DNA from: Anaerolineaceae bacterium
Lineage (GTDB): Bacteria; Chloroflexota; Anaerolineae; Anaerolineales; Anaerolineaceae
Direction of reading: 5' to 3'
Length of the DNA stretch: 64,000 nucleotides
NCBI GenBank assembly: GCA_034430195.1
Contig: DAOUFF010000049.1
Coordinates: 10,271-74,270 of the forward strand
Below the pieces are notes generated by a model. The model had not been told where the DNA came from and made no database searches. It saw only the letters and a program-made list of their open reading frames with translations. Position 1 is the stretch's first letter. Each line of letters starts with the position of its first letter. The translations under genes were made by a program, and so were the position numbers. Shown one piece after another: positions 9,842-25,244 of the stretch.

Positions 9842-10648
9842 TCATGGGAACAGGCTGTAATAGTCCACCTTAGGGAAGACTGTAAGCCGGCCGCCAATGG
9901 TGGCATCCAATACTTGCCGGCCGTCGGCTGCAAAAGCTTCCCGGGCCATGCGGTAAGCCAGCTCGGAGGTCTGCAGGTCTGGCAACTGCCAGCGAAATCC
10001 TTTGCCAAAATAGGCAGCTGAAAAGTGGTTGGGGTCATCGCCCTGCGACTCGACGGTGGTATTGGGGGTTCCCTGGGTAGTAAAGCTGTGGTCGACACCG
10101 ATCAGAACAACCGTGGTAAAGCCCATATAGTAAGCCAGTTGGAGGGCCACGTAGGTCACTGTGGCCCCTTCCCACACCCGCCTGGTCACATCCCGCGAAA
10201 AGCGTGGGCTGGTGTAACTGGTATAGAGGAAGTGAGTCGACTCATCCATCTTCAGCCATTTGTGCGCCCGCCACGAAAAAAATTTGGGCATGTCCAAGGC
10301 GTTGAATTCGGCAGCAGACTGCTCGGCTACCAGATCATTGATCGAAACCAGGCAAGACGGACGAAAGTTTAATTCTTGCTCCGCCAGAAAGATACGGTTA
10401 AAGCCGAAACTGAATTCATTGCTCAGCTTGCCCAAATCGGTCTGGCGCAGGCTTGGACCGTTCCCGACTAAAAAGCAGCGCTCGCCTTTGTGGCTATTGT
10501 GAAGGGCGGCCAGTTTGCGCCGGGATTCCCGCCGCCAGGGGTGCAGGTAAGCGCCCGGCAGTTCGGGCAGACGGCGCAGGCCGTCATAAAGCTGACGCAG
10601 CTCACGCCCGAAACGATCGGAGCTATTTTGCGGGTTTATTTCAGCCAT
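9842..10648 (-). CDS. Stand-alone DUF115/MptE-like domain protein, Maf/Cst (GT42)-like candidate nonulosonic-acid transferase
   Basis: CFLVGNGPSLRQTDLGKLSNEFSFGFNRIF and YVALQLAYYMGFTTVVLIGVDHSF ... DDPNHFS mirror the AGNGPSL ... SGIDFY ... NSHYIGH layout of Cst-type sialyltransferases and the Maf central domain. Confidence 0.6.
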   Translation of the reverse strand: MAEINPQNSSDRFGRELRQLYDGLRRLPELPGAYLHPWRRESRRKLAALHNSHKGERCFLVGNGPSLRQTDLGKLSNEFSFGFNRIFLAEQELNFRPSCLVSINDLVAEQSAAEFNALDMPKFFSWRAHKWLKMDESTHFLYTSYTSPRFSRDVTRRVWEGATVTYVALQLAYYMGFTTVVLIGVDHSFTTQGTPNTTVESQGDDPNHFSAAYFGKGFRWQLPDLQTSELAYRMAREAFAADGRQVLDATIGGRLTVFPKVDYYSLFP

Positions 10649-10654
10649 CAGCGT

Positions 10655-11422
10655 TTATTCCGTACTCAGTCGACAGGTTGCCCCGCCATCGGCAATGATT
10701 CCCTGACCGGTAATAAAGCTGGATTGGGTGGGGTCAGCCAAAAAATAAATCACGGAGGCGATTTCGGCCGGGTCGGCCACCCTGCCGTTTACGGTTTTGC
10801 GTGCCAGCGCAGCCAGCTGCTCTTCTTCGCTGACTTCGCCGGACCTGCCGCGGTGAAAACCAGCCCGCAGCATCGGGGTATCGACCGCGCCGGGCAGCAC
10901 AGCATTCACCCGGATGGAATCGGGGGCAAATTCAATTGCCATAGCCCGCGTCAGAGCCAATAGACCGCCTTTACTGGCAGCATACGCGGCGATATTGGCC
11001 GAGGTGGCTACGGCATGCACGGAAGAGACGTTGACGATCGCGCCGCCTCCCTCGGCCTGGAGCAGCGGGTAGGCCAGTTTGGCGCCCAGAAAGACCGAGC
11101 GCAGGTTGGAAGCCATCACCTGATCCCATTCCTCGGCGCTGGTTTCGAGCAGACTCTTGGTCACCTGAAAACCGGCGTTGTTGACCAAAGCATCCAATGT
11201 GTGCGTAAACTTGCTTGTCTCGGCATAAATCCCTTCCAGCGCGCTGGCTGAGGAGATGTCGGCCTGGATGTAAAGGCCGTTGCTCGGGAATTCAGGGTAA
11301 ACGCCCTTTCGGTCGACACCAATGACGGTATAACCATGTTCCGCGAAGCAGGCTACCACGGCCCGACCCACCCCGCCGGCGGCGCCGGTGATTAATACGT
11401 GTCTTGTTTGGTTGCCAGTCAT
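10655..11422 (-). CDS. SDR family oxidoreductase
   Basis: VLITGAAGGVGRA (TGxxxGxG), NNAG, and a catalytic S...YxxxK region (SSVHAVATSANIAAYAASK). Start moved to ATG 11422, 1 nt after the upstream stop. Confidence 0.8.
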   Translation of the reverse strand: MTGNQTRHVLITGAAGGVGRAVVACFAEHGYTVIGVDRKGVYPEFPSNGLYIQADISSASALEGIYAETSKFTHTLDALVNNAGFQVTKSLLETSAEEWDQVMASNLRSVFLGAKLAYPLLQAEGGGAIVNVSSVHAVATSANIAAYAASKGGLLALTRAMAIEFAPDSIRVNAVLPGAVDTPMLRAGFHRGRSGEVSEEEQLAALARKTVNGRVADPAEIASVIYFLADPTQSSFITGQGIIADGGATCRLSTE

Positions 11423-11423
11423 T

Positions 11424-12434
11424 TCATTCCCTTTCAGCAGAACCACCGGCTGAGTGAGACTGGCCTTCCAGCGCTTTTAAGCTGGCCAGGTCGCCAACCG
11501 GCAGGTCGAGCCCCAGAAGCAAGTTGCGCAAGGTGTTCCAGTGCACCCTTTCCCAAAAGAATGGGCTGGAATTGGTGTTATGCGGTGAAAGCAAGACGTT
11601 CTCCATCTGCAGGAGAGGGCTTTCGAGTGGGAGTGGTTCCACTTCGAAGACGTCTAGCGCGGCGCCACGCAGCTGACCAGCTTGCAGGGCAGCAATCAGC
11701 GCTGGTTCATCAATGACCGGGCCACGGCTGGTGTTAATTATCACGGCATCTCGCTTGCAGTACGAAAGCGTCTCACGGTTGATGAGGTGGTGAGAAGTCG
11801 GGTTCAGCGTACAGTTGAGGCTGATAAAGTCTGACCGACTCAGCAGGTTCTGCAGTGAGGTCATTTCCACGCCTTCTTCCAGTAAAAAGTCAGGTGCGAT
11901 TTCGACGATATCATTGCCCAGCAGCCGCATGCCAAACGCACGGGCACGGCGTAGAACCGCCTTGCCGACGTTCCCCACACCCACCACTCCCAGGGTGGAT
12001 TCGCTGAGCGTCTTTCCCTGGATCTTCTTCCAATTCCCTGCTTTCATGGCCTGGTCCATCCAAGGCTGCTGCCGGGAGAAATTGAGCATGGAAGCCAACA
12101 CGCTTTCAGATACCGGTACGGTAAAGGCATTGGGTGTGTTCAAAACACGCACGCCGAACTCGGCGGCAGCCTGCTGGTCGATAGAGTCAATGCCAGTGCC
12201 CCATTTGGAAATGACGCGCAGCGCTGGCGCACAGGCTGCGATCACGCGGGCGCTGTAACGGTCGTCGCCGCAAATGGTGCCGGCAAACTGCCCGGCATAG
12301 CGCAGGATTTCTTCCTCAGAGAAGCGCTCGTGCACTTCTGGCTGCAGTACAGTAAGGCCAAAGTGCTTCAGAATGGGCTTGAAGCGCTGCATATACGGTA
12401 GCATGTAAGGGGCGGTTACCAATACAGCGGTCAT
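11424..12434 (-). CDS. D-isomer-specific 2-hydroxyacid dehydrogenase family (PGDH/GyaR-like)
   Basis: GVVGVGNVGKAVLRRARAFGMRLLGND (NAD-binding GxGxxG), INTSRGPVIDEPAL, DVFEVEPLP, SPHNT. Confidence 0.75.
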   Translation of the reverse strand: MTAVLVTAPYMLPYMQRFKPILKHFGLTVLQPEVHERFSEEEILRYAGQFAGTICGDDRYSARVIAACAPALRVISKWGTGIDSIDQQAAAEFGVRVLNTPNAFTVPVSESVLASMLNFSRQQPWMDQAMKAGNWKKIQGKTLSESTLGVVGVGNVGKAVLRRARAFGMRLLGNDIVEIAPDFLLEEGVEMTSLQNLLSRSDFISLNCTLNPTSHHLINRETLSYCKRDAVIINTSRGPVIDEPALIAALQAGQLRGAALDVFEVEPLPLESPLLQMENVLLSPHNTNSSPFFWERVHWNTLRNLLLGLDLPVGDLASLKALEGQSHSAGGSAERE

Positions 12435-13123
12435 TTTTCCTCCGGGTTGGATTTTAATCGCTGTGAGAGCAAGATTTCTGCCACGCTAAAATCAATTTCT
12501 TCGTCGATATCCCAGGCTTCCCGGGCATCAATCTCGAACATCAGTGGCCGTTCACCCAGACGGTTGCGCCGGCTGGAGAGGGTCTGCCCTGTGAAAAGAT
12601 ATAAGCACGAATTCTCTTCATATACCGGCGGCAGGTCCTGCGTGCGCAGCAGCACGGCCGGGTTGTGGTTGATCGCCCGCCCCAGCTGGTCCCAAAGGCG
12701 GGTCTGCAGGCGTGTGACACCGAACAAGGAATCGTATTCAGGGTAGGCGGCGCTGAGCGTGGCGATCGCCCGTGAAATGGTTTCGGGCTTGAGCAGCGGA
12801 TTTGTGCTGTGGGTCTGCAGGTACAGATCCGCTGGCACCAGGGAGGTATCGTGCATCAGGATTTCGTTGGTGGGGATGGTGTCTGCGCGCAATTCTTCCG
12901 GCCGAACCAAACAGCGCACGGCAGGAAAATCGCAGGCCAGGCCTTCAAGAATGACCGGAGAGTCACTATCTACAACCACCTGAGAAATTTCAGGGCATGC
13001 CAGCAGGGTGGTGATAATGTGGGCGTAAAGTGGTTTACCCAGCATCAGGCGATAATTTTTCCCCGGGACGCGTTTTGAGTCGTGCCGCATGGGCACCAAG
13101 GCAACAATTTTTTCGAATTTCAT
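12431..13123 (-). CDS. Acylneuraminate cytidylyltransferase family protein (CTP_transf_3-like), copy 1
   Basis: VALVPMRHDSKRVPGKNYRLMLGKPLYAHII, a P-loop-like motif typical of CMP-NulO/CMP-Kdo synthetases. 230 aa. ATGA overlaps at both ends. Confidence 0.75.
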   Translation of the reverse strand: MKFEKIVALVPMRHDSKRVPGKNYRLMLGKPLYAHIITTLLACPEISQVVVDSDSPVILEGLACDFPAVRCLVRPEELRADTIPTNEILMHDTSLVPADLYLQTHSTNPLLKPETISRAIATLSAAYPEYDSLFGVTRLQTRLWDQLGRAINHNPAVLLRTQDLPPVYEENSCLYLFTGQTLSSRRNRLGERPLMFEIDAREAWDIDEEIDFSVAEILLSQRLKSNPEEK

Positions 13124-14742
13124 TCCTCTCCTTCCCTGAGCATAAAGTCACCACCGCGCAGAATCCCATCGCTGATCGCGCGCAGGGCGGCTGAATTATC
13201 TGGCAGAAGCTGCTGCCAGCCAAAGTCTTTCAGGCGCACATAACCGGGCCACAAGCCATCAGGCTCCAAAAAGGCAGCAAAGTTGAGTGATGAGCGGTAC
13301 AGCTGCCAGTAGAGAAAGCGGCGTGCATTTTCAGCAAAGCGCGGCGGGACCTGGATTTCGGCCGCAGAAAGGAAGCTTTCGAGCTGGCTCAGGTAGCTCT
13401 GCCGGCTGGAGGGGAAGTAAACCGCATCGGTGCTGCTGAAGCGCGATTTGCCTGCTGCAAGAACTGGCCGGCCTAAAATGGAAGCTTCCAACCCGATGGT
13501 AGAGTTGTAAATCAGCACTAGTTTGGAGAGGCGAATCAGGTCATAGCTGCTAAAAAACTCGGTCGGGGGAATGAAGCGCACATTGGGCAGGCTTTGCACC
13601 CGCCGGCTTTCAGCCCAGTGGCTGACCGTTTCTTCGCTAGCCTTCCCTTTGCGGGCTTCGTCCGGATGAGCGCGGATGACAAACAGCACTTCGGGGTGTC
13701 GGGCAGCTGCCTGCAGGATCTCATCCAGCCAGACAAACATATCTTCAAAGAGGACGTTGGCATGAGGCTGACTGGTGTCAAATATTACATTGGTAAATAC
13801 CGGTACGACCGCTGTAAACTGGCGGCTGAGGCGCACAAATTCTGGATCCAGCTGGCTCATTTCGGGCCAGAATTGAACGCCGGCCATGTGAAAGTCACCC
13901 TGAAAGCGGCGGCTAAGGTATTGATCCAGACGGGAATTCTGCTCGGCGTCCAATTTAAAATCCTGTGGCAGGGTTAGCGGGTAAGCGGTGGCATCGCCAG
14001 CGGTGAAAAATGCACTCAGTGGTCTCAGTCCGACTTCATGGCTGTAAACCGGCAGGCCGCGCTGGCGGGCAGTCCAGCGGGCTGTCGCCTCGGGGTATTG
14101 CATACCATTAAAAACCACCACAGCTTGCGGTTTCGTTTCGTCCAGCGCGGCAGAAAAACTGCGCTGCAAAGACCAGGCAGAACGCAGGTATTCGCGCAAA
14201 ATGCGCAGAGCCGACGCGTCTCCCTCAAGGTGGTGCCGGCGCAAAATCCAGCGCACCGATGGCAGCACCAGCGACCCAAGGGGTACGCCCTGATATTCCA
14301 GGCTGCTCAGTTCATCCAGGTCAAGCCCGGTTAGAGCCTGGTCAAATTCGTCAGAGGGCTGAAATTCGAACGGGATCTGAGCCTCATCGCCAAAAAGCGC
14401 GCGCGACTGAGCCATGCAGGACTGGCAAGGTGGATTCTTGCCGGCTGTGCTGCGGTCGGTGCCCAAAACACACTGTGTCATGCCTCGCTGGCAGACGAAG
14501 TGCATCACCGGTACCCCTTGCAGCGAAAGCGACCAGCTGCTCAGCCGGGCGAAACCAGCGTTCAGGCTGACCCCGCTCAGCCGGGTGGACGCGTCGAAAA
14601 ACATCACCGGTGCGCCGGCGGCTTGGGGCGAGTGCGCGTGGACCTGCCCGGCCATCGCCCGGATTGAACGGTTGACGGCGGAATGCGTCAGGCGCGTTTG
14701 AAGGTGGGTGCGGGCTTTTCCCGCAAGCTTTGCCGGGTTCAT
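13120..14742 (-). CDS. Capsule-polysaccharide-biosynthesis (KpsC/KpsS, Capsule_synth-like) family protein, paralogue A
   Basis: C-terminal half IRAHPDE ... NVRFIPPTEFFSSYDLIRLSKLVLIYNSTIGLEASILGRPVLAAGKSRF resembles the K-HP-D ... TinSTVGLEAL ... PV..lG signature of PF05159-type proteins. The N-terminal region contains CQRGMTQC ... CQSC. Confidence 0.55.
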   Translation of the reverse strand: MNPAKLAGKARTHLQTRLTHSAVNRSIRAMAGQVHAHSPQAAGAPVMFFDASTRLSGVSLNAGFARLSSWSLSLQGVPVMHFVCQRGMTQCVLGTDRSTAGKNPPCQSCMAQSRALFGDEAQIPFEFQPSDEFDQALTGLDLDELSSLEYQGVPLGSLVLPSVRWILRRHHLEGDASALRILREYLRSAWSLQRSFSAALDETKPQAVVVFNGMQYPEATARWTARQRGLPVYSHEVGLRPLSAFFTAGDATAYPLTLPQDFKLDAEQNSRLDQYLSRRFQGDFHMAGVQFWPEMSQLDPEFVRLSRQFTAVVPVFTNVIFDTSQPHANVLFEDMFVWLDEILQAAARHPEVLFVIRAHPDEARKGKASEETVSHWAESRRVQSLPNVRFIPPTEFFSSYDLIRLSKLVLIYNSTIGLEASILGRPVLAAGKSRFSSTDAVYFPSSRQSYLSQLESFLSAAEIQVPPRFAENARRFLYWQLYRSSLNFAAFLEPDGLWPGYVRLKDFGWQQLLPDNSAALRAISDGILRGGDFMLREGEE

Positions 14743-14743: not shown

Positions 14744-15619
14744 CTACTGGCTAAAGCGCCTCAGCTTGCTCAGAGAAGATTGTTCACTGTCATAAACCTT
14801 TTTGACTCCGTCTCCCAAAGACAGCTCCGTGACGCGGATGTACTTGACCAAGTGGGCGATTCCCTGCGGTTCTACCGAAGCACTTTGGTCGCTGCCCCAC
14901 ATAGCGCGATCCAAGGTGATATGGCGCTCAACCAGACAGGCGCCCAAGGCTACAGCCACAGCTGAGGGAACCAGACCGACCTCGTGCCCTGAATAACCGA
15001 CCGGGCAGGGGTACATGCCTTTGAGCGTGTCGATCATGCGCAAGTTGAGCTCTTCCGGCGGGCAGGGATAGCTGCTGGTGGTGTGGCAGAGAATCAAATT
15101 GTCGGACCCGAGAATTTCCATCGCTTCCCGGATCTGATCCAAGGTGGACATTCCCGTGGAAACGATCAGCGGTTTGCCGGTCGCCCGGTAAGCGCGCAGC
15201 AGCTCGTGATCCGTCAGCAGCGCTGAGGGGATTTTATGGGTTGATGGGTTAAAGCGGTCAATGAATTCCAGCGAGGGGACGTCCCACGATGAGGCAAACC
15301 AATCGATGCCGACTTGGCGGCAATATCGGTCGATCTCAGCGTACTGCTCTTCGCCAAATTCCACTTTGTAGCGGTAGTCTAGATAGGTGACATAGCCCCA
15401 GGGGGTTTCGCGCATCTGATTGCGCTGATGTTCGGGCACGCATAACTCGGGCGTGCGTTTCTGGAACTTGACCGCGTCCAAACCAGCTTCCTTGGCCGCG
15501 TCGATCAGTTGTTTGGCAATTTCCAGGTCGCCGTTATGGTTGATGCCAATTTCGCCGACGATGTAAGTTGGGTGTCCGTCGCCGATCCAGCGGCTGCCGA
15601 TTTTGACTTCACGTGCCAT
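14744..15619 (-). CDS. NeuB-family PEP-condensing (non)ulosonic acid synthase, short form lacking the SAF domain
   Basis: IGDGHPTYIVGEIGINHNGDLEIAKQLIDAAKEAGLDAVKFQKR, KIPSAL, STGMST, GYSGHE. 291 aa, ending right after the TIM barrel. Confidence 0.8.
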   Translation of the reverse strand: MAREVKIGSRWIGDGHPTYIVGEIGINHNGDLEIAKQLIDAAKEAGLDAVKFQKRTPELCVPEHQRNQMRETPWGYVTYLDYRYKVEFGEEQYAEIDRYCRQVGIDWFASSWDVPSLEFIDRFNPSTHKIPSALLTDHELLRAYRATGKPLIVSTGMSTLDQIREAMEILGSDNLILCHTTSSYPCPPEELNLRMIDTLKGMYPCPVGYSGHEVGLVPSAVAVALGACLVERHITLDRAMWGSDQSASVEPQGIAHLVKYIRVTELSLGDGVKKVYDSEQSSLSKLRRFSQ

Positions 15620-16868
15620 TGTTTTCTCCTGTTTGAGTTTCGTTGATTGATTTCATGACCATTTCGGTAAGCTCGCGGATGGCTCCTCGGCCGCCTGGGT
15701 GCTTTAAAACCAGATCAGCCTGGCGGCGTACCTGGGGGTGCGCATCGGCGGGGCAGACGAAATAGCCGACCAGGGGCAGCACAGGCAGGTCGGTGACGTC
15801 ATTTCCTACATAAATGACTTCTTCCCCTTTCAAGTTGCGGTCCGCCAGCAACTGGCGCAGGGCTTCGTCTTTGCGGAGCACAGCCTGAAAGACTTCCATC
15901 TTCAGCTTGCGCCCACGGGCTGAGACGACCGGATTTTCTTCGCGGGAGAGGATGATGGCATTTACCTGCCCTTGCTCGCGCAGCAAATCCAACCCAAGGC
16001 CATCAGAGCGGCTGGTACGGACGCTTTCGCGACCATCCTGGTCGGTATAGACCATGTCGTCCGACAAAACGCCGTCAAAGTCCATGACCAACGTGGAAAT
16101 GCGCCCGGGGAAAGACCTTCTGCGCTTGAGCGGATCCACTGGCTCCAGTTCCGGTTCCTGCATCAGCCGGGCATAGCGTTCAAGGTCGACGGGAGTGTCG
16201 ATGTCGACCGTGTAGCGCGGGTCGATGACAACCGGCAGAATGACGCTGCCCGACATGGAGTGCCTGCGCAGAATCGTTTCAGTCCGGATGGCATCTATAT
16301 GGCCGGTCTGCCAATAGGTTTTGGGGAGCATCTGGCGGGGGGCGTTGTAAGGCTCAGGGACGTCTGCCAGTTGCAGCAGCGGCTGAAGGCTGCCCGACTG
16401 TGGGTCAATCCGCCACATTTTGTATGGGTTCTGGCCGGCTGGAACCACCCCGCGAACGCTGTCCGCTTCTGGATTCTCCATAAGCAGATGTACAGCGCTG
16501 TCGATCAGGCCCTTCGGGCGCACGGGTGAGGTTGGCCGCAGCTGCACGACCACATCGTAATTCCGGTTCTCGTGCTGGGCTAGCCATTCTAGAGCGTGTT
16601 GAAATACCGGGAAGTCCGTCGTGTCATCCTGGGCCAGTTCTGGTGGGCGTAAGAAGGGCGCCTCGGCACCCCATGCACGCGCTACCTGTGAAATTTCTTC
16701 GTCATCAGTTGAAACGATCACGCGCGAGACCGTTTCGGCCTGCAGGGCGGCTGCGATGCTGTATGCGATCAGGGGTGCACCGGCAAAATCGTGCAGATTT
16801 TTGCGCGGAATGCCCTTGGAGCCACCCCGGGCTGGAATGAGCGCCAGCACCTGCGGTTGGGCTACCAT
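15609..16868 (-). CDS. Bifunctional CMP-nonulosonate synthetase (N-terminal) / KdsC-type HAD phosphatase (C-terminal)
   Basis: N-terminal ALIPARGGSKGIPRKN ... VVQLRPTSP (CTP_transf_3-like, about aa 1-236). C-terminal VMDFDGVLSDD (HAD motif I), ILSRE, VGNDVTDLP (motif IV), about aa 258-419, matching the KdsC / Kdn-9-P phosphatase layout. Confidence 0.75.
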   Translation of the reverse strand: MVAQPQVLALIPARGGSKGIPRKNLHDFAGAPLIAYSIAAALQAETVSRVIVSTDDEEISQVARAWGAEAPFLRPPELAQDDTTDFPVFQHALEWLAQHENRNYDVVVQLRPTSPVRPKGLIDSAVHLLMENPEADSVRGVVPAGQNPYKMWRIDPQSGSLQPLLQLADVPEPYNAPRQMLPKTYWQTGHIDAIRTETILRRHSMSGSVILPVVIDPRYTVDIDTPVDLERYARLMQEPELEPVDPLKRRRSFPGRISTLVMDFDGVLSDDMVYTDQDGRESVRTSRSDGLGLDLLREQGQVNAIILSREENPVVSARGRKLKMEVFQAVLRKDEALRQLLADRNLKGEEVIYVGNDVTDLPVLPLVGYFVCPADAHPQVRRQADLVLKHPGGRGAIRELTEMVMKSINETQTGENNGT

Positions 16869-17689
16869 GCCGTCCAGCCTCCATCCACGACCAGGTTACT
16901 GCCAGTCATGTATGACGATGCGTCCGAGGCCAAAAAGAGCATGGCCGCGCTCATCTCATCCACTCGGGCCATGCGCCCCAGGATGGTTTTGGCAGAATAA
17001 GCTTCGCTAAAAACTTCATCATGGCCGTTGAACACGCCACCCGGGGTAAGGGCGTTCACGCGGATATTCTGGCCGGCATAGTAGGCCGCCAGATAGCGGG
17101 TGAAGCCGAGCACACCGGCTTTGGTGACCGAATAATGGACCGGTTTGAAAGATTGACTGCCATCCGGACGGCGGTAAATGCGCTGGTCCGGGCCGTTCAG
17201 GCCGTAAGTAGAACATATGTTCACGATGGCGCCTTGCCCTTGCGCCAGCATTGGCTTGACGGCTGCTTGAGAGGCAAGAAACATGCCGGTCAGGTTGACG
17301 TCCAGCGCCTGGCGCCAGGCATCCAAAGCATAGCTTTCAAATGCGTTGGCAGCCTGACTGCCGGCATGCTGCGGGTCAAACTTGGGGTCCAACGCAGCGG
17401 AATTAATCAGTACGTCCAGCCGGCCGAAGGCCCGCACGGTTTCTGAAACCATGTCAGCGGTCGAGGCGGGGTTGGTGACGTCAACTTCCACGGCTTGTGC
17501 AACAAGATTTTGATCGCACAGGAGGCGGGCTTGATCGCGGGCGGCTTGCGCTGCCAGATCGGCCACCATCACCATCGCGCCGGCCTGAGCCAAAGCCAGG
17601 CTGAATTGCTTCCCAAGCAACCCCGCTCCGCCGGTGACGATCACCGCCCGGCCGTGCATGTCAAATTTATCCATTATTTGTTGTGTCAT
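16862..17689 (-). CDS. SDR family oxidoreductase
   Basis: AVIVTGGAGLLGKQ, INSAAL, catalytic CSTYG ... YSVTKAG, LTPGGV. Confidence 0.8.
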   Translation of the reverse strand: MTQQIMDKFDMHGRAVIVTGGAGLLGKQFSLALAQAGAMVMVADLAAQAARDQARLLCDQNLVAQAVEVDVTNPASTADMVSETVRAFGRLDVLINSAALDPKFDPQHAGSQAANAFESYALDAWRQALDVNLTGMFLASQAAVKPMLAQGQGAIVNICSTYGLNGPDQRIYRRPDGSQSFKPVHYSVTKAGVLGFTRYLAAYYAGQNIRVNALTPGGVFNGHDEVFSEAYSAKTILGRMARVDEMSAAMLFLASDASSYMTGSNLVVDGGWTAW

Positions 17690-17736: not shown

Positions 17737-18738
17737 TTAAACCGGCTGAATGGGTACCAACCGGCCTGCCTGCGCGGCAGAAGTGTGCACGGCCAGAGCT
17801 GCCGCCAACGCACGAATGCCATCTTCGAGGCTGCAGATAGGCGCTTCGGCACCGCGGCAAACTTGAACAAAATGCGCCATTTCTGCCAAAAACAGACTGT
17901 TGCGTTCAAAGTCGGCGGGCGGGTCCAGGCGCTGCCACTTTTTATCCGCGGTGGTGTATATTTCTGCTGAGCCGCTGGCATTGTTCCAACGGACAAATCC
18001 GGCGCTGCAGGTAACCTCCAGCCAATGAGCCGGCGGGCGTTGGTAATAGTCCAGATGTACCTGGGCGCGCGCTCCCGATTCAAACAAGAGGGTGATTTCC
18101 GCGCTGTCTTCCACTTCAATTTCCAGGTCGCTGATGTGAGCGGTGGTGGCGCTGAGGACCTGCGTCTCGCCCAACAGCCAGCGCAGGTAGTCCAAAGGGT
18201 GCGAGAGGGTCAGTACGACGCCGCCGCCCAGGGAGGGCTGCGCAGCGTAAGAAAGGCGGTAATCTTCCCAGGGGTGCCAGTCTGGCAAATACTCTCCCCA
18301 GTGAGCCTGAGCGGAGAGCGGCAGCCCCAGCTGACTGGAAGCCAAAATGGATTTCACCTGCTGCAAAACGGGGTGATGGCGGAAGTGGAAGCCAACCAGT
18401 GCCTGCTTATGGTGCAGCGCCAGTTCCTGGCGCAGCTCGGGCAAACCTTCCAGCTTATGTGAGACCGGTTTTTCAATCATCAAATGGCAACCGGCTGCTG
18501 CGGCGGGCAGCGCCACACTCAGGTGGGCGGCGCTGGGGTTGCAAATAATGGCAGCATCCGGTTTTTCAGCCAAAGCTTCGCCCAGATCGGTAAAAGTGGG
18601 TAAACCGGCCAGGTCATCATCCGGCAGGGTGGCATGATGGGTACGGAAGAGCAGAATGTCTTCCTGGCCCAGCGACCGCAGGTTGCGCAGATGACGTCTG
18701 CCGATGGAACCCAAACCTGCGATCAGGAACTTCATCAT
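17737..18738 (-). CDS. Gfo/Idh/MocA family oxidoreductase
   Basis: MMKFLIAGLGSIGRRHLRNL Rossmann N-terminus, MIEKP motif. Start set at ATG 18738, an ATGA overlap with the upstream stop. Confidence 0.75.
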   Translation of the reverse strand: MMKFLIAGLGSIGRRHLRNLRSLGQEDILLFRTHHATLPDDDLAGLPTFTDLGEALAEKPDAAIICNPSAAHLSVALPAAAAGCHLMIEKPVSHKLEGLPELRQELALHHKQALVGFHFRHHPVLQQVKSILASSQLGLPLSAQAHWGEYLPDWHPWEDYRLSYAAQPSLGGGVVLTLSHPLDYLRWLLGETQVLSATTAHISDLEIEVEDSAEITLLFESGARAQVHLDYYQRPPAHWLEVTCSAGFVRWNNASGSAEIYTTADKKWQRLDPPADFERNSLFLAEMAHFVQVCRGAEAPICSLEDGIRALAAALAVHTSAAQAGRLVPIQPV

Positions 18739-19757
18739 TCTCCGCCTTTCTGGTGCAGCAGCTTGTAAAGGCGATTGATCAGACCCTGCAGAAAGGCACG
18801 GACGTGCTTGTTCTGCCAAAACCCACCTTGGGAGCCCTTTTTGACTGAAAGCGCAACCGCCTGAGCGTGGATTCCATCCCGGGAAGCCAAAGCTGCCACT
18901 TCGGCATCGATGGCATTGCCCAACAGGCGCATTGTTTGGGGGTAGGTTGTCAGCCTCAGGTACCCAAGCGCATCCATGCGATCATCCATCTCGACCATGC
19001 GGCCCATCAGCTGGTCACTCCAGCCCTCGGGCAGCATGCTCTCCAACACCTGCAAAAGCACTGCTTTGGGGGTCATCACCTGAAAATGATGGGCTGAAAC
19101 CCAGGCTTTGACGCCGCCAAGCGTCACAATGACATCCTGGATGCCGGCAATCTCGCTCTGGTAGCGCTGCTCGTCCCGGCCGGCGTTGATCATGTACTCT
19201 TCTTCCCATTTACGCGGGATGAGATTGCCGCGCTGTACGGCAGAGGGGTTTTGAGCCTCCAGCTGGGCGGCCCATGCCAGCGTCTGGTCCGAACTCATGG
19301 CCACGCGCTGTTTAATGTAAAAACCGGTGACGGCGCCTACATTGGGGAAAGTTTCCATCACCTTCAGGTGTTCTGGCAGCCAGCCGGGCAGGTGATAGAC
19401 ATCATCATCGGTATAGGCAATCATCTGACCCTGGGCGCAGTTGGCGATGCGCCAGAGGGCATTCAGCTTGCCGATATTTTTGTCCGAGAGGAGCAGCGTG
19501 TTGATTTTGCCCTGCGCATAAAGGCCCTGTAAGAACGAAACCATTTCTTGACTGGAGCCGTTATCAAACACCAGCAGCTCGTAGGGCTGAGCGGTGTTGG
19601 CCAGGATGCTTTCCAGAGTCAGGCGGGTCACATCCAGCCGGTGTTGAAAGTAACCGGCTTGATGCGGCGCGTAAACCAGAACCGCAACGGTGACACGCGG
19701 CCGTTCAAAGTCCACCTTTTGGCTGCGGGAAGGGTTCATGCCGATGCGGGCCATCAA
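18735..19757 (-). CDS. Glycosyltransferase family 2
   Basis: VTVAVLVYAPHQ ... YELLVFDNGSS ... IAYTDDDVYHLPGWL (DxD). Confidence 0.75.
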   Translation of the reverse strand: MMARIGMNPSRSQKVDFERPRVTVAVLVYAPHQAGYFQHRLDVTRLTLESILANTAQPYELLVFDNGSSQEMVSFLQGLYAQGKINTLLLSDKNIGKLNALWRIANCAQGQMIAYTDDDVYHLPGWLPEHLKVMETFPNVGAVTGFYIKQRVAMSSDQTLAWAAQLEAQNPSAVQRGNLIPRKWEEEYMINAGRDEQRYQSEIAGIQDVIVTLGGVKAWVSAHHFQVMTPKAVLLQVLESMLPEGWSDQLMGRMVEMDDRMDALGYLRLTTYPQTMRLLGNAIDAEVAALASRDGIHAQAVALSVKKGSQGGFWQNKHVRAFLQGLINRLYKLLHQKGGE

Positions 19758-20712: not shown

Positions 20713-22410
20713 TTATTCCTCCAGGGGGAGCCAGGTGCGCTTGGGAGCGAGATGTTCCAAAATTTTCCGGCGGGTCATTCCCAGACGGCGCTTGAGCGCC
20801 ACTGCTTTTTCGGGAACTACCGTGCCGGCCGGCGTTACGGAGGGAACCGGCTCTGCCAGAGCGGAAATGTAAAGCGGCAGGGTTTCAGAGCGGGGGTAGC
20901 CATGGCTGCGGATTTGGCGCAGCCGGAAGCCAGCCTGCAGCAGCATCTGCGTCAATGTGTGGCGGGTAAAGCAGCTCAGATGAGCCAACTCAAAGCTGTC
21001 GTGGGCGTACAGGTTGGGCACTTCCAGCAACAACATTCCCCCTTCGTTCAGCAGCCGTTCACGGATAGCCGTCAGGGTTTCAAGGGGCTGGCTGAGATGC
21101 TCCAGCACGTGCATCATTGTGATCAGGTCAAATTTCCCATCTTGTTCCGAGAGCGCTTCCAGTGATGCGGCCACCCGTAGCCCTTTGTGTTCCGCCAGGG
21201 CGCGGTAGGCGTCGCCTGGTTCCACGCCGACGGCCTCGGCGACGAAAGCATCACGCAGTGCTTCCAAGAGGATGCCGCTAGAAGACCCCACATCCAACAC
21301 CCGCCGCGGGTGAGAAGGCAAGACTTGCCGCAAATAGCGCACCTGATCTGCTGCGCGCAGGGCCTGCTGGCGCAAGTCTTTGGCGGTCGGTTCCGCGCTG
21401 GCCTGGTAGATGCGGCGATAGGTTTCAGCGTAAAAAGATGGATCCGCGGCCTGGGCTTCGGCGCTGTTTTGAAAGACGAAACCGCAGCGCTCACAGATAT
21501 AGTAGCGCACAGAAAAATCAAACGATCGGACTTCTTGGAATAGGCGGGCCTGGGTGTGACCGCACAACGGGCAATCTGGCTCACTTTTCGGGGTATGTTC
21601 CGGCATTAATGGCCGGGATTCCGTTTGGTTTGGGGCTGCCGGCTGAGCGGCGCGGCTGTCCACGTCGAACAAGCTCTTGTGCTGCACCTCTGCAACCAGC
21701 GTCTGCCATTCCGGATGGCGTTCATTCTCACGCAGCAAGTCTTCCAGGGTAAAGTCGTCACGGTCGTCAAAGGCGGCATAGACAGCGTTTGCCAGCTTCA
21801 AGTCTTCTGCTGTATCCACCGTGAAACGCAGGTGCCCAAGGCTTGGCTGGCGCTCCACAAGCTTGACACTGAAGCGCCCGGGCTGGTCATAGAGGTAGGG
21901 CATGACATGCTCCCGTTCATAAGGAGCGCTGGCCTGTTCCCAGGCCTGCTGCAGCGCAGAGAAACGGCATACTTCCACGTCCATGCCGATCGGGCTGGTG
22001 CGAATGAATGGCGGAGGCAGGCGGTTGGCCGCAAAATCGGCACCGCTTTCAGCGAATGCGGCCACAACCCGGTCAACTTCTGCCGGGTCAATCATCGGGC
22101 AGTCGGCGGTGATGCGCACGATCACATCCGCAGCAAAGTGCAGTGCTGCCTGGTAATAGCGATCCAAGACGTCAAAGCTATTCCCGCGAAAAAATGGGAT
22201 TGCTTGTGCCGCGCAAAAATCGGCAATTGGGTCGTCGATGACCTCGCTGGTTGTGGCGACGGCGGTCAGATCCAGGCTTTTGGCGCGCCGGGTTCTGGCC
22301 AGCACACGCGCCAGCATTGGCTGCGAGCCGACCGGCAGGAGCACTTTGCCTGGCAGCCGGCTGGAACCCATGCGGGCTTGAATGATGGCGACAACTTTTG
22401 GCTGGCTCAA
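20713..22410 (-). CDS. Fusion protein: SpsF/PseF-like cytidylyltransferase (N-terminal) + Zn-ribbon class I SAM methyltransferase (C-terminal)
   Basis: N-terminal VVAIIQARMGSSRLPGKVLLPVG ... RITADCPMIDP (about aa 1-245). C-terminal CPLCGH ... CERCGF (Cys4), then VLDVGSSSGILLE (SAM motif I) and MMHVLEHL (about aa 280-565). Confidence 0.75.
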   Translation of the reverse strand: MSQPKVVAIIQARMGSSRLPGKVLLPVGSQPMLARVLARTRRAKSLDLTAVATTSEVIDDPIADFCAAQAIPFFRGNSFDVLDRYYQAALHFAADVIVRITADCPMIDPAEVDRVVAAFAESGADFAANRLPPPFIRTSPIGMDVEVCRFSALQQAWEQASAPYEREHVMPYLYDQPGRFSVKLVERQPSLGHLRFTVDTAEDLKLANAVYAAFDDRDDFTLEDLLRENERHPEWQTLVAEVQHKSLFDVDSRAAQPAAPNQTESRPLMPEHTPKSEPDCPLCGHTQARLFQEVRSFDFSVRYYICERCGFVFQNSAEAQAADPSFYAETYRRIYQASAEPTAKDLRQQALRAADQVRYLRQVLPSHPRRVLDVGSSSGILLEALRDAFVAEAVGVEPGDAYRALAEHKGLRVAASLEALSEQDGKFDLITMMHVLEHLSQPLETLTAIRERLLNEGGMLLLEVPNLYAHDSFELAHLSCFTRHTLTQMLLQAGFRLRQIRSHGYPRSETLPLYISALAEPVPSVTPAGTVVPEKAVALKRRLGMTRRKILEHLAPKRTWLPLEE

Positions 22411-22419
22411 TCTGGATCC

Positions 22420-24173: not shown

Positions 24174-25244
24174 TCAGGCCTGCCCCAGCGCGGTCCAACG
24201 CAATTCCTGGCCCATCTCCAGGGGAACAATGGCGCGCGTGCCGACTACCTGGTCGATCTCGTAGGGAGCAATTGCTCCGGGGGAGGCCGGCCTCAGCACG
24301 TCGATCATGTCTCGCGTCAAAACTTCTCCGGCAGCGATCGGGCGCGCAGCGCGCAGGCAGCGCCTTTGAACCACTGCGGTTTCCTGCTCGTTGGCGGCAA
24401 TCGTCTTGTTGCCGCTGCCCAGTGCGCGTTCCAGCTGGCGGGTGGCGGTCACCATTTCAGCCCAAGACTGTGGATTCATGGCGAAAGCATGGTCCGGGCC
24501 TTCACGCTGGTTGTCGTCTGTAAAATGTTTTTCGATGACCCGCGCCCCCAAGGCGACCGCCCCCAAAACCGTGGCATGCCCGTGGGTGTGATCTGAAAGG
24601 CCCAAAACTAAATCGGGCCACATCTCGTGATAAGTCCGCAACACATTCAAGTGAATATTGTCGAAATTGCCATCGGCAGCGGTGTAATTGGTATTACACT
24701 GCATGAGGATCAGCTGGCTGTTGATAGCCAAAATCGCGTCTACGGCACGCTGCACATCGCCAATGGTGGAGGCACCGGTGGCCAGCAAGACGGGTTTGGC
24801 TTTGGCGGCCATGCGTTGGCAGCTCTCCAACCAGGTGATATCGCCTGAACCGATTTTATAGGCGGGTACGAATGGGTCCAACATGTCAATGGCTTCAAAG
24901 TCATAGGGTGCTGAAAAATATTCAATACCAACCTCGTCGCAAGCGCCTTTGAGCAGCGGGGTCCATTCGAATGGCAGGGAAGCTTCGCTGTAAACCTGGG
25001 TGACGGATTTTTTCCATCCGGCCTGGTGTGAGACCTGTGCATTCATGTGCCCAAAGCCATACTCAGAGACGATTTTTGGAGCGCGAAAGTTTTGAAACTT
25101 GGCCGCATTGGCGCCAGCTTGCGCTGCCAGCCGGATCAGATCCAAAGCCCGCTCCAGGCTGCCGTCATGATTGGCCGCAATATCTGCAATAAAATAGGTC
25201 GGGTGGCTTGCACCAACCAACGTTTTCCCGATTCTAAGCGCCAT
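24174..25244 (-). CDS. NeuB/PseI/LegI-type nonulosonic acid synthase, full length with SAF domain
   Basis: HPTYFIADIAANHDGSLERALDLIRLAAQAGANAAKFQNF, KIGSGD, LATGAST, GLSDHT. C-terminal SAF-like RPIAAGEVLTRDMIDVLRP. Confidence 0.85.
   Translation of the reverse strand: MALRIGKTLVGASHPTYFIADIAANHDGSLERALDLIRLAAQAGANAAKFQNFRAPKIVSEYGFGHMNAQVSHQAGWKKSVTQVYSEASLPFEWTPLLKGACDEVGIEYFSAPYDFEAIDMLDPFVPAYKIGSGDITWLESCQRMAAKAKPVLLATGASTIGDVQRAVDAILAINSQLILMQCNTNYTAADGNFDNIHLNVLRTYHEMWPDLVLGLSDHTHGHATVLGAVALGARVIEKHFTDDNQREGPDHAFAMNPQSWAEMVTATRQLERALGSGNKTIAANEQETAVVQRRCLRAARPIAAGEVLTRDMIDVLRPASPGAIAPYEIDQVVGTRAIVPLEMGQELRWTALGQA

What the first reader, a model, noticed from the sequence alone, without database searches (positions are those of the whole stretch)
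14744..16868. SAF-less NeuB plus CMP-synthetase/KdsC-phosphatase fusion: a self-contained phosphorylated-intermediate (Kdn/Neu-9-P-like) route with vertebrate-CMAS-like architecture
ORF 14744..15619 has the NeuB TIM barrel but ends at 291 aa, without the SAF/AFP-like domain that the other NeuB homologue (24174..25244) keeps. It overlaps by 11 nt a 419-aa ORF. That ORF's first ~236 aa are a CMP-NulO synthetase (ALIPARGGSKGIPRKN), and its last ~160 aa are a KdsC-type HAD phosphatase with intact motif I (DFDGV) and motif IV (GNDVTD). A dedicated phosphatase only makes sense if the condensation product is a 9-phosphate. That route is established for animal Neu5Ac and for Kdn synthesis in Bacteroides. 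A cytidylyltransferase fused to a KdsC-like domain is also the domain order of vertebrate CMP-sialic acid synthetase. The window contains no UDP-GlcNAc 2-epimerase or ManNAc kinase, so Man-6-P giving Kdn-9-P is the most parsimonious substrate (inference).
Basis: partly seen in the sequence, partly recalled or inferred. Interest (0 to 1): 0.62.

Follow-up and report, generated by a model that had tools for sequence, protein, structure and literature searches.

The report
Phosphate-route sialic-acid-like sugar synthesis genes
Two overlapping genes in a wastewater Anaerolineaceae bacterium most likely build a sialic-acid-like nine-carbon sugar through a phosphorylated intermediate; this gene layout is common in bacteria, but here the sugar-activating part looks retuned for a modified, still unknown sugar.

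Summary
On the minus strand, a 291-aa NeuB without a SAF domain (14744-15619) overlaps by 11 nt a 419-aa cytidylyltransferase-HAD fusion (15609-16868). Hundreds of assemblies carry both genes without indels.

The phosphorylated-intermediate idea is well supported.
- All 35 NeuB genes lying within 4 kb of a KdsC-like HAD share a Q-K-R motif. So does the Man-6-P-specific Prymnesium Kdn-9-P synthase.
- Every NeuB-linked HAD carries the Glu/Arg/Lys signature of the Bacteroides Kdn-9-P phosphatase, not the KdsC pattern.
- The window NeuB is 62% identical to the Streptomyces NeuB. Streptomyces walls contain Kdn polymers.

Three points need correcting.
- Lack of SAF is not the marker of this route.
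- The fusion is a widespread, known architecture.
- The pair is not self-contained.

The fused transferase lacks the Kdn gatekeeper Tyr/Arg and has Asp192/Met205 instead. That pocket co-occurs (26 of 28 loci) with the adjacent PtmA-like SDR and PtmF-like oxidoreductase. A separate Kdn-type transferase lies 1.6 kb downstream. The product of the fused enzyme is therefore probably a modified Kdn-like sugar, not plain CMP-Kdn. There are no enzyme data.

The parts
14744..15619 (-). SAF-less NeuB-family synthase, 291 aa, of the 'Q-K-R' clade, window subtype c. Predicted nonulosonate-9-phosphate synthase, most likely Kdn-9-P from PEP plus Man-6-P.
   Evidence: Pfam finds a full-length NeuB barrel and no SAF. 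It is 33% identical (147 bits) to the Man-6-P-specific P. parvum Kdn-9-P synthase. It is 62% identical over 290 aa to the Streptomyces microflavus NeuB that lies next to a HAD. It falls in the Q-K-R clade in the NJ tree.
15455..15463 (-). Codons for Gln53-Lys54-Arg55 of NeuB. This is the motif shared by all HAD-linked NeuBs and is a candidate phosphate-binding site (inference).
   Evidence: All 35 NeuBs within 4 kb of a HAD have [KL][FL]QKR, against 8 of 43 NeuBs without a HAD. The motif aligns with Q55-T56-H57 of N. meningitidis NeuB.
15609..16868 (-). Cytidylyltransferase-HAD fusion protein, 419 aa. It overlaps NeuB by 11 nt and the upstream SDR by 7 nt.
   Evidence: No indels in independent contigs.
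16134..16868 (-). CMP-nonulosonate synthetase domain (about aa 1-245). The C5 pocket has Asp192 and Met205 where Kdn-specific enzymes have Tyr and Arg.
   Evidence: CTP_transf_3 83 bits; PseF model 152 bits, below its cutoff of 206. The profile-profile alignment to PpNeuA places D192 opposite Y183 and M205 opposite R196. The gatekeeper role of R196 comes from PMC12934254.
15633..16103 (-). KdsC-like C0-type HAD domain (aa 256-412). Predicted nonulosonate-9-phosphate phosphatase. Key residues: D263, D265, S308, E310, R318, K321, K333, N356, D357, D360.
   Evidence: Alignment to BT1713 and E. coli KdsC. Residue conservation in 62 diverse fusions. Signature DD[ST]ERKK[ND]DD in 38 of the 40 HADs found in the related loci, most of them next to a NeuB. 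The closest solved structure is 3MMZ from Streptomyces, 135 bits.
16862..17689 (-). PtmA-like short-chain dehydrogenase, 275 aa. Part of the conserved cassette; exact role unresolved.
   Evidence: Best NCBIfam match is NF006619/PRK09186 at 186 bits, below its cutoff of 255. Syntenic in L001-L014. Co-occurs with Asp/Glu-pocket transferases.
17737..18741 (-). PtmF-like Gfo/Idh/MocA oxidoreductase. The likely start is Met27 of the 360-aa ORF 17737..18819, because homologues are about 331 aa. Part of the cassette.
   Evidence: Pfam GFO_IDH_MocA N- and C-terminal domains. Homologues of 331 aa in L001-L004. The closest solved structure is 1,5-anhydro-D-fructose reductase.
13120..14742 (-). 540-aa KpsS/Capsule_synth-like protein immediately after NeuB. 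Candidate ulosonic-acid transferase.
   Evidence: Weak matches to Capsule_synth, BFO_1060 glycosyltransferase and TIGR04396. It follows the NeuB gene in L001-L014, L016, L018, L020 and L029.
12431..13123 (-). Second, stand-alone cytidylyltransferase, 230 aa, with the Kdn-type Tyr/Arg pocket. Candidate CMP-Kdn synthetase.
   Evidence: CTP_transf_3 107 bits. Y and R at the PpNeuA 183 and 196 positions. Conserved downstream in L001-L005, L009, L010, L014, L016 and L029.

Best explanation
The gene pair is the core of a phosphorylated-intermediate pathway for a nonulosonic acid. It sits in a long minus-strand locus for a cell-surface glycopolymer, exported by a Wzm/Wzt ABC transporter, in an Anaerolineaceae bacterium from anaerobic digesters and wastewater.

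Proposed steps, all inferred from comparisons:
1. The SAF-less NeuB condenses PEP with a hexose 6-phosphate, most likely Man-6-P, to give a 3-deoxy-nonulosonate 9-phosphate, most likely Kdn-9-P.
2. The HAD domain of the next protein removes the 9-phosphate.
3. A cytidylyltransferase makes the CMP-sugar.

The transferase fused to the HAD is not of the Kdn-specific type. Its C5 pocket has Asp192/Met205 instead of Tyr/Arg. This pocket type travels with the two adjacent oxidoreductases, the PtmA-like SDR and the PtmF-like Gfo/Idh/MocA enzyme. So the fused transferase most likely activates a derivative, probably altered at or near C5, which the oxidoreductase pair makes from the NeuB product or from its precursor.

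The separate Tyr/Arg transferase at 12431-13123 may activate unmodified Kdn. The KpsS-like 540-aa protein is the probable transferase that adds the sugar to the polymer.

What is shown: the genes, domains and motifs, and their conservation and linkage. What is inferred: every enzymatic step.
For: Phosphorylated route:
- 35 of 35 NeuBs within 4 kb of a KdsC-like HAD (fused or free) carry Q-K-R, against 8 of 43 NeuBs without a HAD.
- Q-K-R NeuBs form one NJ clade (67% bootstrap) that includes the P. parvum Kdn-9-P synthase. That enzyme converted only Man-6-P among the sugars tested (PMC6200933).
- In 62 diverse fusions, DxDG, Lys333, Asp357 and Gly355 are invariant. Glu310 is present in 61 of 62, Arg318 in 59 of 62 and Lys321 in 61 of 62.
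- The Glu/Arg/Lys pattern is that of the Kdn-9-P phosphatase BT1713. E. coli KdsC has Arg/Arg/Thr at those positions.
- In syntenic Anaerolineales loci, NeuB is replaced by a NeuB-SAF-AP_endonuc_2 fusion, the architecture of the Serratia NeuB required for Kdn. In those loci the transferase has lost the HAD (PMC9000132).

Kdn-like product:
- The window NeuB is 62% identical to the Streptomyces microflavus NeuB, which lies beside a 3MMZ-like HAD, a polysialyltransferase-like gene and glycosyltransferase genes. Streptomyces walls carry Kdn teichulosonic acid (PMC11481543, PMC13011467).
- Window-type NeuB pairs with Tyr/Arg CT-HAD fusions, with no oxidoreductases nearby, in an archaeal MAG (L019) and a Gemmatimonad (L024). 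It also pairs with a CT-HAD fusion in Microbacterium (L028), where the pocket residues could not be aligned.
- Kdn-mass sugars are the second most abundant nonulosonic acid in anaerobic granular sludge polymers (PMC10483923).

Modified product:
- R196 of PpNeuA is the Kdn gatekeeper (PMC12934254). The window has M205 there, and D192 at the Y183 position.
- 26 of 28 transferases with Asp or Glu at that position have an SDR and/or a Gfo oxidoreductase within 6 kb. 37 of 43 with Tyr have neither.
- This pocket type occurs with NeuB subtypes a, c and d and with the NeuB fusion type. It therefore tracks the oxidoreductases, not the synthase.

Operon: gene overlaps of 7, 11, 4 and 4 nt and a 1-nt gap. 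Synteny is conserved in L001-L014 and L029.
Against: - No protein of this subtype has been assayed.
- Motif IV has Asn356 where BT1713 has the Mg-binding Asp103. Asn is conserved in 55 of 62 fusions, so the chemistry could differ.
- The HAD scores below the curated cutoffs of both the Kdn-9-P phosphatase model (84.6 vs 180) and the KdsC models (108 vs 208).
- The window NeuB is in a different subclade from the only assayed relative in my set. Support for the Q-K-R clade is moderate (67%, NJ only).
- The gatekeeper argument rests on one mutational study of a 34%-identical algal enzyme.
- The linkage counts are not phylogenetically independent, and the locus sample was chosen by similarity to the query.
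- The role of BT1713 residues E56, R64 and K67 in substrate binding is recalled from Lu et al. 2009 and Daughtry et al. 2013, which I could not open.
- What the SDR/Gfo pair does is unknown. It could act elsewhere in the locus.
Confidence: 0.6

Rival explanations
1. The two genes alone form a complete Man-6-P to Kdn-9-P to Kdn to CMP-Kdn route. The neighbouring oxidoreductases are unrelated to it.
For: Two-gene CT-HAD plus Q-K-R NeuB sets, with no oxidoreductases nearby, exist in Flavobacterium (5 loci), Nitrosospira, Clostridia, Microbacterium and an archaeal MAG. The window NeuB is 62% identical to the Streptomyces one.
Against: In every one of those two-gene sets whose pocket could be aligned (9 of the 10; not Microbacterium), the fused transferase has the Tyr/Arg Kdn pocket. 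The window's fused transferase has Asp/Met. The Asp/Met type is accompanied by an SDR and/or Gfo oxidoreductase in 26 of 28 loci. A separate Tyr/Arg transferase is conserved 1.6 kb downstream.
Confidence: 0.22
2. The PtmA/PtmF-like pair supplies an amino-hexose 6-phosphate from Fru-6-P. This activity was reported for the Campylobacter legionaminic acid pathway. NeuB would then make a 5-amino nonulosonate 9-phosphate (Neu-9-P-like). After dephosphorylation, this is activated by a transferase whose Asp192 binds the free amine.
For: PtmA (an SDR) and PtmF (an oxidoreductase) flank the transferase gene in legionaminic acid clusters, and PtmA is assigned to the early segment that builds the sugar (PMC4481668). 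The Fru-6-P to GlcN-6-P activity is my recollection of Schoenhofen et al. 2009. An acidic residue replaces Tyr in the C5 pocket precisely when the SDR is present. Free-amine nonulosonic acids occur in wastewater bacteria (bioRxiv 10.64898/2026.04.20.719630).
Against: There is no aminotransferase, amidotransferase or acetyltransferase in the cassette. An SDR plus a Gfo enzyme cannot aminate a sugar on their own. The NeuB is 62% identical to that of a genus known to make Kdn. True legionaminic-type clusters with PtmA/F keep Tyr in the transferase pocket (L086, L051).
Confidence: 0.1
3. The HAD domain is only a structural oligomerisation module, as in vertebrate CMAS. NeuB would use a non-phosphorylated sugar.
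For: The mouse CMAS C-domain has the same fold and no phosphatase activity (PMC8636478). Motif IV carries Asn instead of the first Asp.
Against: All other catalytic residues are invariant across fusions that are only 34-52% identical to the window protein. The same HAD occurs as a free-standing gene next to Q-K-R NeuBs. It is lost when the NeuB type changes. The Q-K-R motif links NeuB to the HAD in 35 of 35 cases.
Confidence: 0.06
4. The pair makes an eight-carbon Kdo-like acid. NeuB would act as a Kdo-8-P synthase analogue, the HAD as a KdsC, and the KpsS-like protein as a Kdo transferase.
For: The best NCBIfam match of the HAD is KdsC (108 bits). The downstream 540-aa protein weakly matches Capsule_synth, the family of the KpsS/KpsC Kdo transferases.
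Against: The HAD has Glu, not the KdsC Arg, at position 56, and Lys, not Thr, at position 67. It is below every KdsC cutoff. No arabinose-5-P isomerase is present. NeuB clusters with nine-carbon synthases.
Confidence: 0.03

Closest known systems
Bacteroides thetaiotaomicron Kdn pathway: BT1714 Kdn-9-P synthase, BT1713 Kdn-9-P phosphatase and a CMP-Kdn synthetase (Wang et al. 2008, cited in PMC6200933 and PMC10483923)
   Same: The logic is the same: a NeuB-type synthase, then a KdsC-like C0 HAD phosphatase, then a cytidylyltransferase. The HAD shares BT1713 residues D10, D12, E56, R64, K67, K80, D104 and D107.
   Different: In the window the phosphatase is fused to the transferase. Motif II has Ser instead of Thr. 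Motif IV has Asn in place of D103. The score against the BT1713 equivalog model is 84.6, against a cutoff of 180. I could not obtain the BT1714 sequence for comparison.
[quoted passage not shown]
   Same: The synthase is also SAF-less (312 aa), carries F-Q-K-R and a similar long loop after strand beta-2, and is 33% identical. The transferase fold and CTP-binding motifs are shared.
   Different: The window NeuB is in a different subclade (c versus a). The window's fused transferase has Asp192/Met205 where PpNeuA has Tyr183/Arg196. No phosphatase homologue was found in the alga.
Streptomyces / Microbacterium teichulosonic-acid-type clusters (Kdn wall polymers; S. coelicolor SCO4873-4882; PDB 3MMZ HAD)
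   Same: These are the closest relatives outside Chloroflexota. NeuB is 62% identical. The HAD has the same S...E-R-K...G-N-D signature, and 3MMZ is the best PDB match at 135 bits. Microbacterium has the CT-HAD fusion. The setting is similar: a wall glycopolymer of a monoderm bacterium, with an LCP ligase gene in the window.
   Different: The actinobacterial transferase region keeps the Tyr/Arg pocket (L087 ORF), and no PtmA/PtmF-like pair is adjacent. The glycosyltransferases differ: polysialyltransferase-like and DUF6716 there, KpsS-like and MptE-like here.
Vertebrate CMP-sialic acid synthetase (CMAS/CSS)
   Same: Same domain order: N-terminal cytidylyltransferase and C-terminal KdsC-like HAD. 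Both mouse domains are matched in the PDB (1QWJ, E 2e-16; 3EWI, E 6e-14).
   Different: The mouse C-domain has no phosphatase activity and serves oligomerisation (PMC8636478). The bacterial domains keep the catalytic residues and also occur as free-standing genes.
PtmA / PtmF of legionaminic acid clusters (Campylobacter, Vibrio fischeri, Plesiomonas)
   Same: An SDR plus a Gfo/Idh/MocA oxidoreductase flanking the CMP-nonulosonate synthetase gene (PMC4481668). The best NCBIfam match of the window SDR is PRK09186.
   Different: The window module has no LegB/C/H/G, PtmE or PgmL genes. The SDR scores below the model cutoff (186 vs 255). The synthase partner is a phospho-route NeuB with a HAD, not LegI.

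Membership tests
NeuB / nonulosonate synthase family (PF03102) | Complete NeuB TIM-barrel domain | tested here: met
   257 bits, model positions 1-241 of 241.
Classical bacterial Neu5Ac synthase (TIGR03569 equivalog) | Score above the curated cutoff, and a C-terminal SAF domain that contributes to the active site | tested here: not met
   246 bits against a cutoff of 400. No SAF domain.
Phospho-sugar-using NeuB (Kdn-9-P / Neu5Ac-9-P synthase type) | Same clade as an assayed phospho-sugar-specific enzyme | tested here: inconclusive
   It lies in the same Q-K-R clade as the P. parvum enzyme (NJ bootstrap 67%) but in a different subclade.
Phospho-sugar-using NeuB (Kdn-9-P / Neu5Ac-9-P synthase type) | Genomic linkage to a nonulosonate-9-P phosphatase, together with the Q-K-R motif | tested here: met
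   35 of 35 HAD-linked NeuBs have Q-K-R. The window NeuB has Q53-K54-R55 and overlaps the HAD-bearing gene.
Phospho-sugar-using NeuB (Kdn-9-P / Neu5Ac-9-P synthase type) | Turnover of Man-6-P (or ManNAc-6-P) but not of the free sugar | not testable with these tools
   Needs an enzyme assay.
Kdn-9-P phosphatase (BT1713 type, NF058599) | HAD motifs I-IV with the catalytic Asp nucleophile | tested here: inconclusive
   Motifs I-III are intact (D263, D265, S308, K333). Motif IV is G-N-D-V-T-D, with Asn for BT1713 D103.
Kdn-9-P phosphatase (BT1713 type, NF058599) | Substrate-binding residues Glu56, Arg64 and Lys67 | tested here: met
   E310, R318 and K321 align with them. Their functional role is recalled from the literature and was not re-read.
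Kdn-9-P phosphatase (BT1713 type, NF058599) | Score above the curated equivalog cutoff | tested here: not met
   84.6 bits against a cutoff of 180.
Kdo-8-P phosphatase KdsC | Score above the cutoff, and Arg at the position of BT1713 residue 56 | tested here: not met
   108 vs 208 (NF007019) and 94.7 vs 106.95 (TIGR01670). The window has Glu where E. coli KdsC has Arg.
CMP-nonulosonate synthetase (CTP_transf_3) | Cytidylyltransferase domain with the PARGGSKG(I/V)P-KN CTP loop | tested here: met
   83 bits against a cutoff of 22.6. The motif is at residues 12-24.
Kdn-specific CMP-sialic acid synthetase | Arg at the PpNeuA 196 position (gatekeeper), with Tyr at position 183 | tested here: not met
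   Met205 and Asp192 in the fused domain. The stand-alone transferase at 12431-13123 does have Tyr/Arg.
Vertebrate CMAS architecture | N-terminal cytidylyltransferase followed by a C-terminal KdsC-like domain in one chain | tested here: met
   This is a shared architecture; common descent was not tested.
PtmA (NF006619 / PRK09186) | Score above the curated cutoff | tested here: not met
   186 bits against a cutoff of 255. It is the best match but below the cutoff.

The most novel reading that the evidence does not exclude
The cassette of a PtmA-like SDR, a PtmF-like Gfo oxidoreductase and an Asp/Met-pocket (or Glu/Ile-pocket) cytidylyltransferase could be a mobile, uncharacterised tailoring unit. 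It would plug into any phospho-route NeuB (subtypes a, c, d, or the NeuB-SAF-isomerase fusion). It would convert Kdn, or its hexose-6-P precursor, into a nonulosonic acid modified at C5, for example an epimer or a free-amine Neu-like sugar. That sugar class has not been described chemically. If so, part of the 'Kdn' signal measured by mass in sludge polymers would in fact be an isomer made by abundant Anaerolineae.
Probability: 0.3. Interest if true: 0.7.

Novelty: new variant of a known kind. Interest (0 to 1): 0.42.

Why it matters
Nonulosonic acids are abundant in wastewater granule polymers, but the genes behind the Kdn-type signal are poorly resolved. [quoted passage not shown] This work gives three sequence markers that could improve annotation of thousands of 'N-acetylneuraminate synthase' and 'acylneuraminate cytidylyltransferase' genes:
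- Q-K-R in NeuB;
- Glu/Arg/Lys in the HAD;
- Tyr/Arg versus Asp/Met in the transferase.

It also points to an untested oxidoreductase-dependent branch. If that branch is real, it would add a new sugar to the sialic acid family and assign a function to the long-puzzling PtmA/PtmF-type pair. For the gene pair taken alone, the biology is ordinary: a known type of route in a common architecture.

Tried and rejected
Rejected ideas:
- Frameshift or assembly artefact. Hundreds of full-length homologues exist and contigs from four runs show no indels.
- SAF-lessness as the marker of the phosphorylated route. The Leptospira 6NCS enzyme is SAF-less but has F-Q-A-Y, and subtype b Q-K-R NeuBs keep SAF beside a free HAD.
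- KdsC identity of the HAD.

Dead ends:
- The primary papers on BT1713/BT1714 (PMC3966652, PMC4425688) are not held, and a phrase search found nothing. The role of E56, R64 and K67 is therefore cited from memory.
- A 55-sequence alignment was too diverse for the genome scan. An 11-sequence alignment worked.
- A Biopython bootstrap timed out. A first numpy version produced NaN distances. The corrected run is.
- Literature searches on Cj1330/Cj1332 gave nothing on the mechanism of PtmA/PtmF.
- PDB matches of the SDR and the Gfo enzyme are generic and do not reveal a substrate.
- RNA evidence is thin. There is one short contig in each of two RNA-type sludge/wastewater libraries, over NeuB (15301-15466) and over the transferase (16340-16560). 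DNA carry-over cannot be excluded.
- The report of C10 ulosonic acids in Magnetospirillum concerns diamino sugars and gave no gene link to this module.

Not run: structure prediction. The tool returns no coordinates, so residue geometry could not have been checked.


Full report
**1. What is there**

On the minus strand, ORF 14744..15619 encodes 291 aa and ORF 15609..16868 encodes 419 aa. They overlap by 11 nt.

- The 291-aa protein is a complete NeuB barrel with no SAF domain. The second NeuB of the window (24174..25244) has NeuB plus SAF.
- The 419-aa protein has an N-terminal CTP_transf_3 cytidylyltransferase and, at residues 256-412, a KdsC/YrbI-type HAD.
Motif IV, however, reads G-N-D-V-T-D: Asn replaces the first Asp of the canonical G-D-D.

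Neither the missing SAF domain nor the fusion is an artefact.
- The fusion has more than 100 listed full-length relatives of about 410 aa at 66-72% identity.
- NeuB has more than 100 relatives of 291-292 aa at 79-88% identity. Many of those that carry a source name are labelled Anaerolineaceae MAGs.
- Contigs from four independent runs cross the domain junction and the gene overlap with substitutions only.
- The sequence occurs in at least 20 runs, labelled anaerobic digester, wastewater, bioreactor or freshwater-sediment metagenomes, plus one coded organism.

**2. Context**

The pair lies in a roughly 29-kb minus-strand glycopolymer locus (about 7978-36807). The locus contains:
- a Wzm/Wzt ABC exporter;
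- several glycosyltransferases;
- three CTP_transf_3 genes;
- two NeuB genes;
- two distantly related KpsS-like proteins of 540 and 552 aa.

Around the pair, in the direction of transcription, the order is: GT2, Gfo/Idh/MocA oxidoreductase, SDR (best model PRK09186, the PtmA type), CT-HAD fusion, NeuB, KpsS-like 540 aa, 230-aa cytidylyltransferase, D-2-hydroxyacid dehydrogenase, SDR, MptE-like protein. Neighbouring genes overlap by a few nucleotides or are separated by 1 nt. This order is conserved in other Chloroflexota contigs. No NeuC-type epimerase or ManNAc kinase was found among the window ORFs scanned. An LCP ligase gene lies at 45941-47356.

**3. How common is the architecture**

Among the 150 best representatives of 50%-identity clusters, 78 are CT-HAD fusions and 4 have the reverse order.

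A scan of one genome per species found full-length fusions in Chloroflexota, Actinomycetota (Microbacterium), Gemmatimonadota, Alphaproteobacteria, Clostridia, Planctomycetota, five Flavobacterium species, Nitrosospira, and a Methanobacteriota MAG. In a Verrucomicrobiae locus (L077) the match spans two genes: a 239-aa transferase and a HAD-SDR fusion.

[quoted passage not shown] SAF-less NeuBs make up about 30% of the family in UniProt (PMC8208679). The architecture itself is therefore not new.

**4. Is the HAD a working nonulosonate-9-P phosphatase?**

This cannot be assumed, because the mouse CMAS C-domain is inactive. Four observations argue that it is active here.

- *Residue conservation.* In 62 fusions, most only 34-52% identical to the window protein, the DxDG of motif I, the motif III Lys, and Gly, the second Asp and (61 of 62) the last Asp of motif IV are conserved.
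- *Substrate signature.* Positions matching BT1713 E56, R64 and K67 are Glu (61 of 62), Arg (59 of 62) and Lys (61 of 62). E. coli KdsC has Arg, Arg and Thr there. Of the 40 HADs found in the related loci, most of them beside a NeuB, 38 carry DD[ST]ERKK[ND]DD. That these residues bind the Kdn-9-P substrate is my recollection of Lu et al. 2009 and Daughtry et al. 2013, which I could not open.
- *Free-standing copies.* The same HAD occurs as a separate gene next to NeuB in many loci.
- *A natural swap.* In syntenic Anaerolineales loci (L016, L018, L020), NeuB is replaced by a NeuB-SAF-AP_endonuc_2 fusion. This is the architecture of the Serratia NeuB required for Kdn production (PMC9000132). In those loci the transferase is about 250 aa and has no HAD.

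The caveat is Asn356. It stands where BT1713 has an Asp which, from memory, binds Mg. Asn is conserved in 55 of 62 fusions and is also present in the Streptomyces structure 3MMZ.

**5. Does NeuB use a phospho-sugar?**

I extracted every NeuB from the 80 related loci.
- All 35 that lie within 4 kb of a HAD have [KL][FL]-Q-K-R just after strand beta-2.
- Only 8 of the 43 others have it, and two of those have a HAD about 5 kb away.
- The P. parvum Kdn-9-P synthase has F-Q-K-R and is itself SAF-less. In vitro it converted only Man-6-P among the sugars tested.
- N. meningitidis NeuB, C. jejuni PseI, B. subtilis SpsE and the SAF-less Leptospira 6NCS have Q-T-H, Q-T-Y, Q-M-F and Q-A-Y.
- Q-K-R NeuBs form one NJ clade (200 of 300 bootstraps). 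Subtype a, with the algal enzyme, has 100% support. The window subtype c has 87%.
- Subtype b keeps SAF and still sits next to a free HAD.

The informative marker is therefore Q-K-R, not the absence of SAF.

**6. Which sugar?**

Several lines point to Kdn as the NeuB product.
- The window NeuB is 62% identical over 290 aa to the NeuB of Streptomyces microflavus. That gene lies directly after a 3MMZ-like HAD and near polysialyltransferase-like, GT2, DUF6716, acyltransferase and BNR genes.
- Streptomyces walls are decorated mainly with teichulosonic acid, a polymer of Kdn and galactose units. A biosynthetic cluster for it is known in S. coelicolor (PMC11481543, PMC13011467).
- Microbacterium has the same gene set, with a CT-HAD fusion.
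- Window-type NeuB also pairs with a CT-HAD fusion and no other sugar-modifying gene nearby in an archaeal MAG and a Gemmatimonad.

**7. The pair is not self-contained**

PpNeuA owes its Kdn specificity to Arg196. The R196L mutant switches preference to Neu5Ac, and transferases of Kdn-only bacteria share this Arg (PMC12934254).

A profile-profile alignment (probability 100%, gap-free in this region) places window Asp192 opposite Tyr183 and Met205 opposite Arg196.

Across the loci:

| Residue at the Tyr183 position | SDR and/or Gfo within 6 kb | Neither |
|---|---|---|
| Asp or Glu (28 transferases) | 26 | 2 |
| Tyr (43 transferases) | 6 | 37 |

- Three of the six Tyr cases with an oxidoreductase nearby are the second transferase of window-type loci.
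- The Tyr/Arg CT-HAD fusions (Flavobacterium, Nitrosospira, Clostridia, archaeon, Gemmatimonad) have no oxidoreductases nearby.
- The Asp/Met type occurs with NeuB subtypes a (L021, L022), c and d, and with the NeuB fusion type. The pocket therefore tracks the oxidoreductases, not the synthase.
- The window also keeps a stand-alone Tyr/Arg transferase at 12431-13123.

The simplest reading is as follows. NeuB and the HAD make Kdn. The SDR/Gfo pair makes a derivative altered near C5. The fused transferase activates that derivative, and the stand-alone transferase may activate Kdn itself. This part is inference. The counts are not phylogenetically independent, and the chemistry of the oxidoreductase pair is unknown. 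Their closest solved relatives are generic.

**8. Verdict**

- Kdn-9-P is the best candidate for the intermediate.
- The claims of an unusual architecture and of a self-contained CMP-Kdn route are not supported.

What remains interesting is the retuned transferase pocket linked to a PtmA/PtmF-like pair. This is a testable lead to a modified Kdn-like sugar in abundant wastewater Anaerolineae.

Noticed in passing
window 20713-29735 (minus strand): A second ulosonic-acid sub-cluster. It contains a PseB equivalog (26175-27311, 490 bits, above its cutoff), an RmlD-like reductase, a NeuB with SAF (24174-25244), a GT4 glycosyltransferase and a 565-aa cytidylyltransferase-methyltransferase fusion (20713-22410). 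There is no DegT-type aminotransferase anywhere in the locus. This suggests a 9-deoxy, mono-amino pseudaminic-like acid rather than Pse itself.
   Followed up: partly
window 9842-13123 (minus strand): A conserved four-gene set: a Tyr/Arg-pocket cytidylyltransferase (230 aa), a D-2-hydroxyacid (PGDH-like) dehydrogenase, an SDR, and an MptE/DUF115-like protein that may be a nonulosonate transferase. It recurs in L001-L005, L010, L014, L016 and L029. Its function is unknown.
   Followed up: partly
window 13120-14742 and 28077-29735: Two distant paralogues (26% identity over 225 aa, E 8e-16) with weak KpsS/Capsule_synth similarity. Each lies in one of the two NeuB sub-clusters (one directly after the SAF-less NeuB, the other a few genes upstream of the SAF NeuB). 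They are candidate ulosonic-acid transferases of an undescribed family.
   Followed up: partly
L012 (Chloroflexus MAG) 2969-12200: One locus carries two different Q-K-R NeuB paralogues (subtypes d and c), a free cytidylyltransferase, a CT-HAD fusion, a Gfo oxidoreductase, an SDR and a KpsS-like gene. The two subtypes therefore probably differ in substrate or product.
   Followed up: no
L025 11588-12679; L077 8302-9633: Other fusions of the same HAD. In a proteobacterial MAG it is fused to a SIS_2 sugar-phosphate isomerase domain. In a Verrucomicrobiae MAG it is fused to the PtmA-like SDR. The HAD-SDR fusion ties the SDR functionally to the phospho-route.
   Followed up: partly
L016 10979-12871, L018, L020, L076: NeuB-SAF-AP_endonuc_2 (xylose-isomerase-like) fusions of 630-750 aa. 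This is the same architecture as the Serratia marcescens NeuB required for Kdn. In otherwise syntenic Anaerolineales loci they replace the NeuB-plus-HAD pair.
   Followed up: partly
L087 (Streptomyces microflavus GCA_013167915.1) 8435-9678: The cytidylyltransferase-HAD gene next to NeuB is split over two reading frames: residues about 5-115 in frame 2 and 182-377 in frame 1. This is either a frameshift in that assembly or a real pseudogene. Many Streptomyces database entries for this protein are labelled 'partial'.
   Followed up: partly
window 41482-42939 (+): A 485-aa ORF combining an N-terminal GIY-YIG nuclease domain with a galactokinase-type GHMP kinase. This is an odd fusion and could simply be an over-extended ORF start.
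   Followed up: no
window 55504-59558 (minus strand): Two adjacent phosphoglucomutase/phosphomannomutase-family genes. One is 849 aa with a roughly 200-aa N-terminal extension of unknown nature. They may be relevant to hexose-phosphate supply.
   Followed up: no
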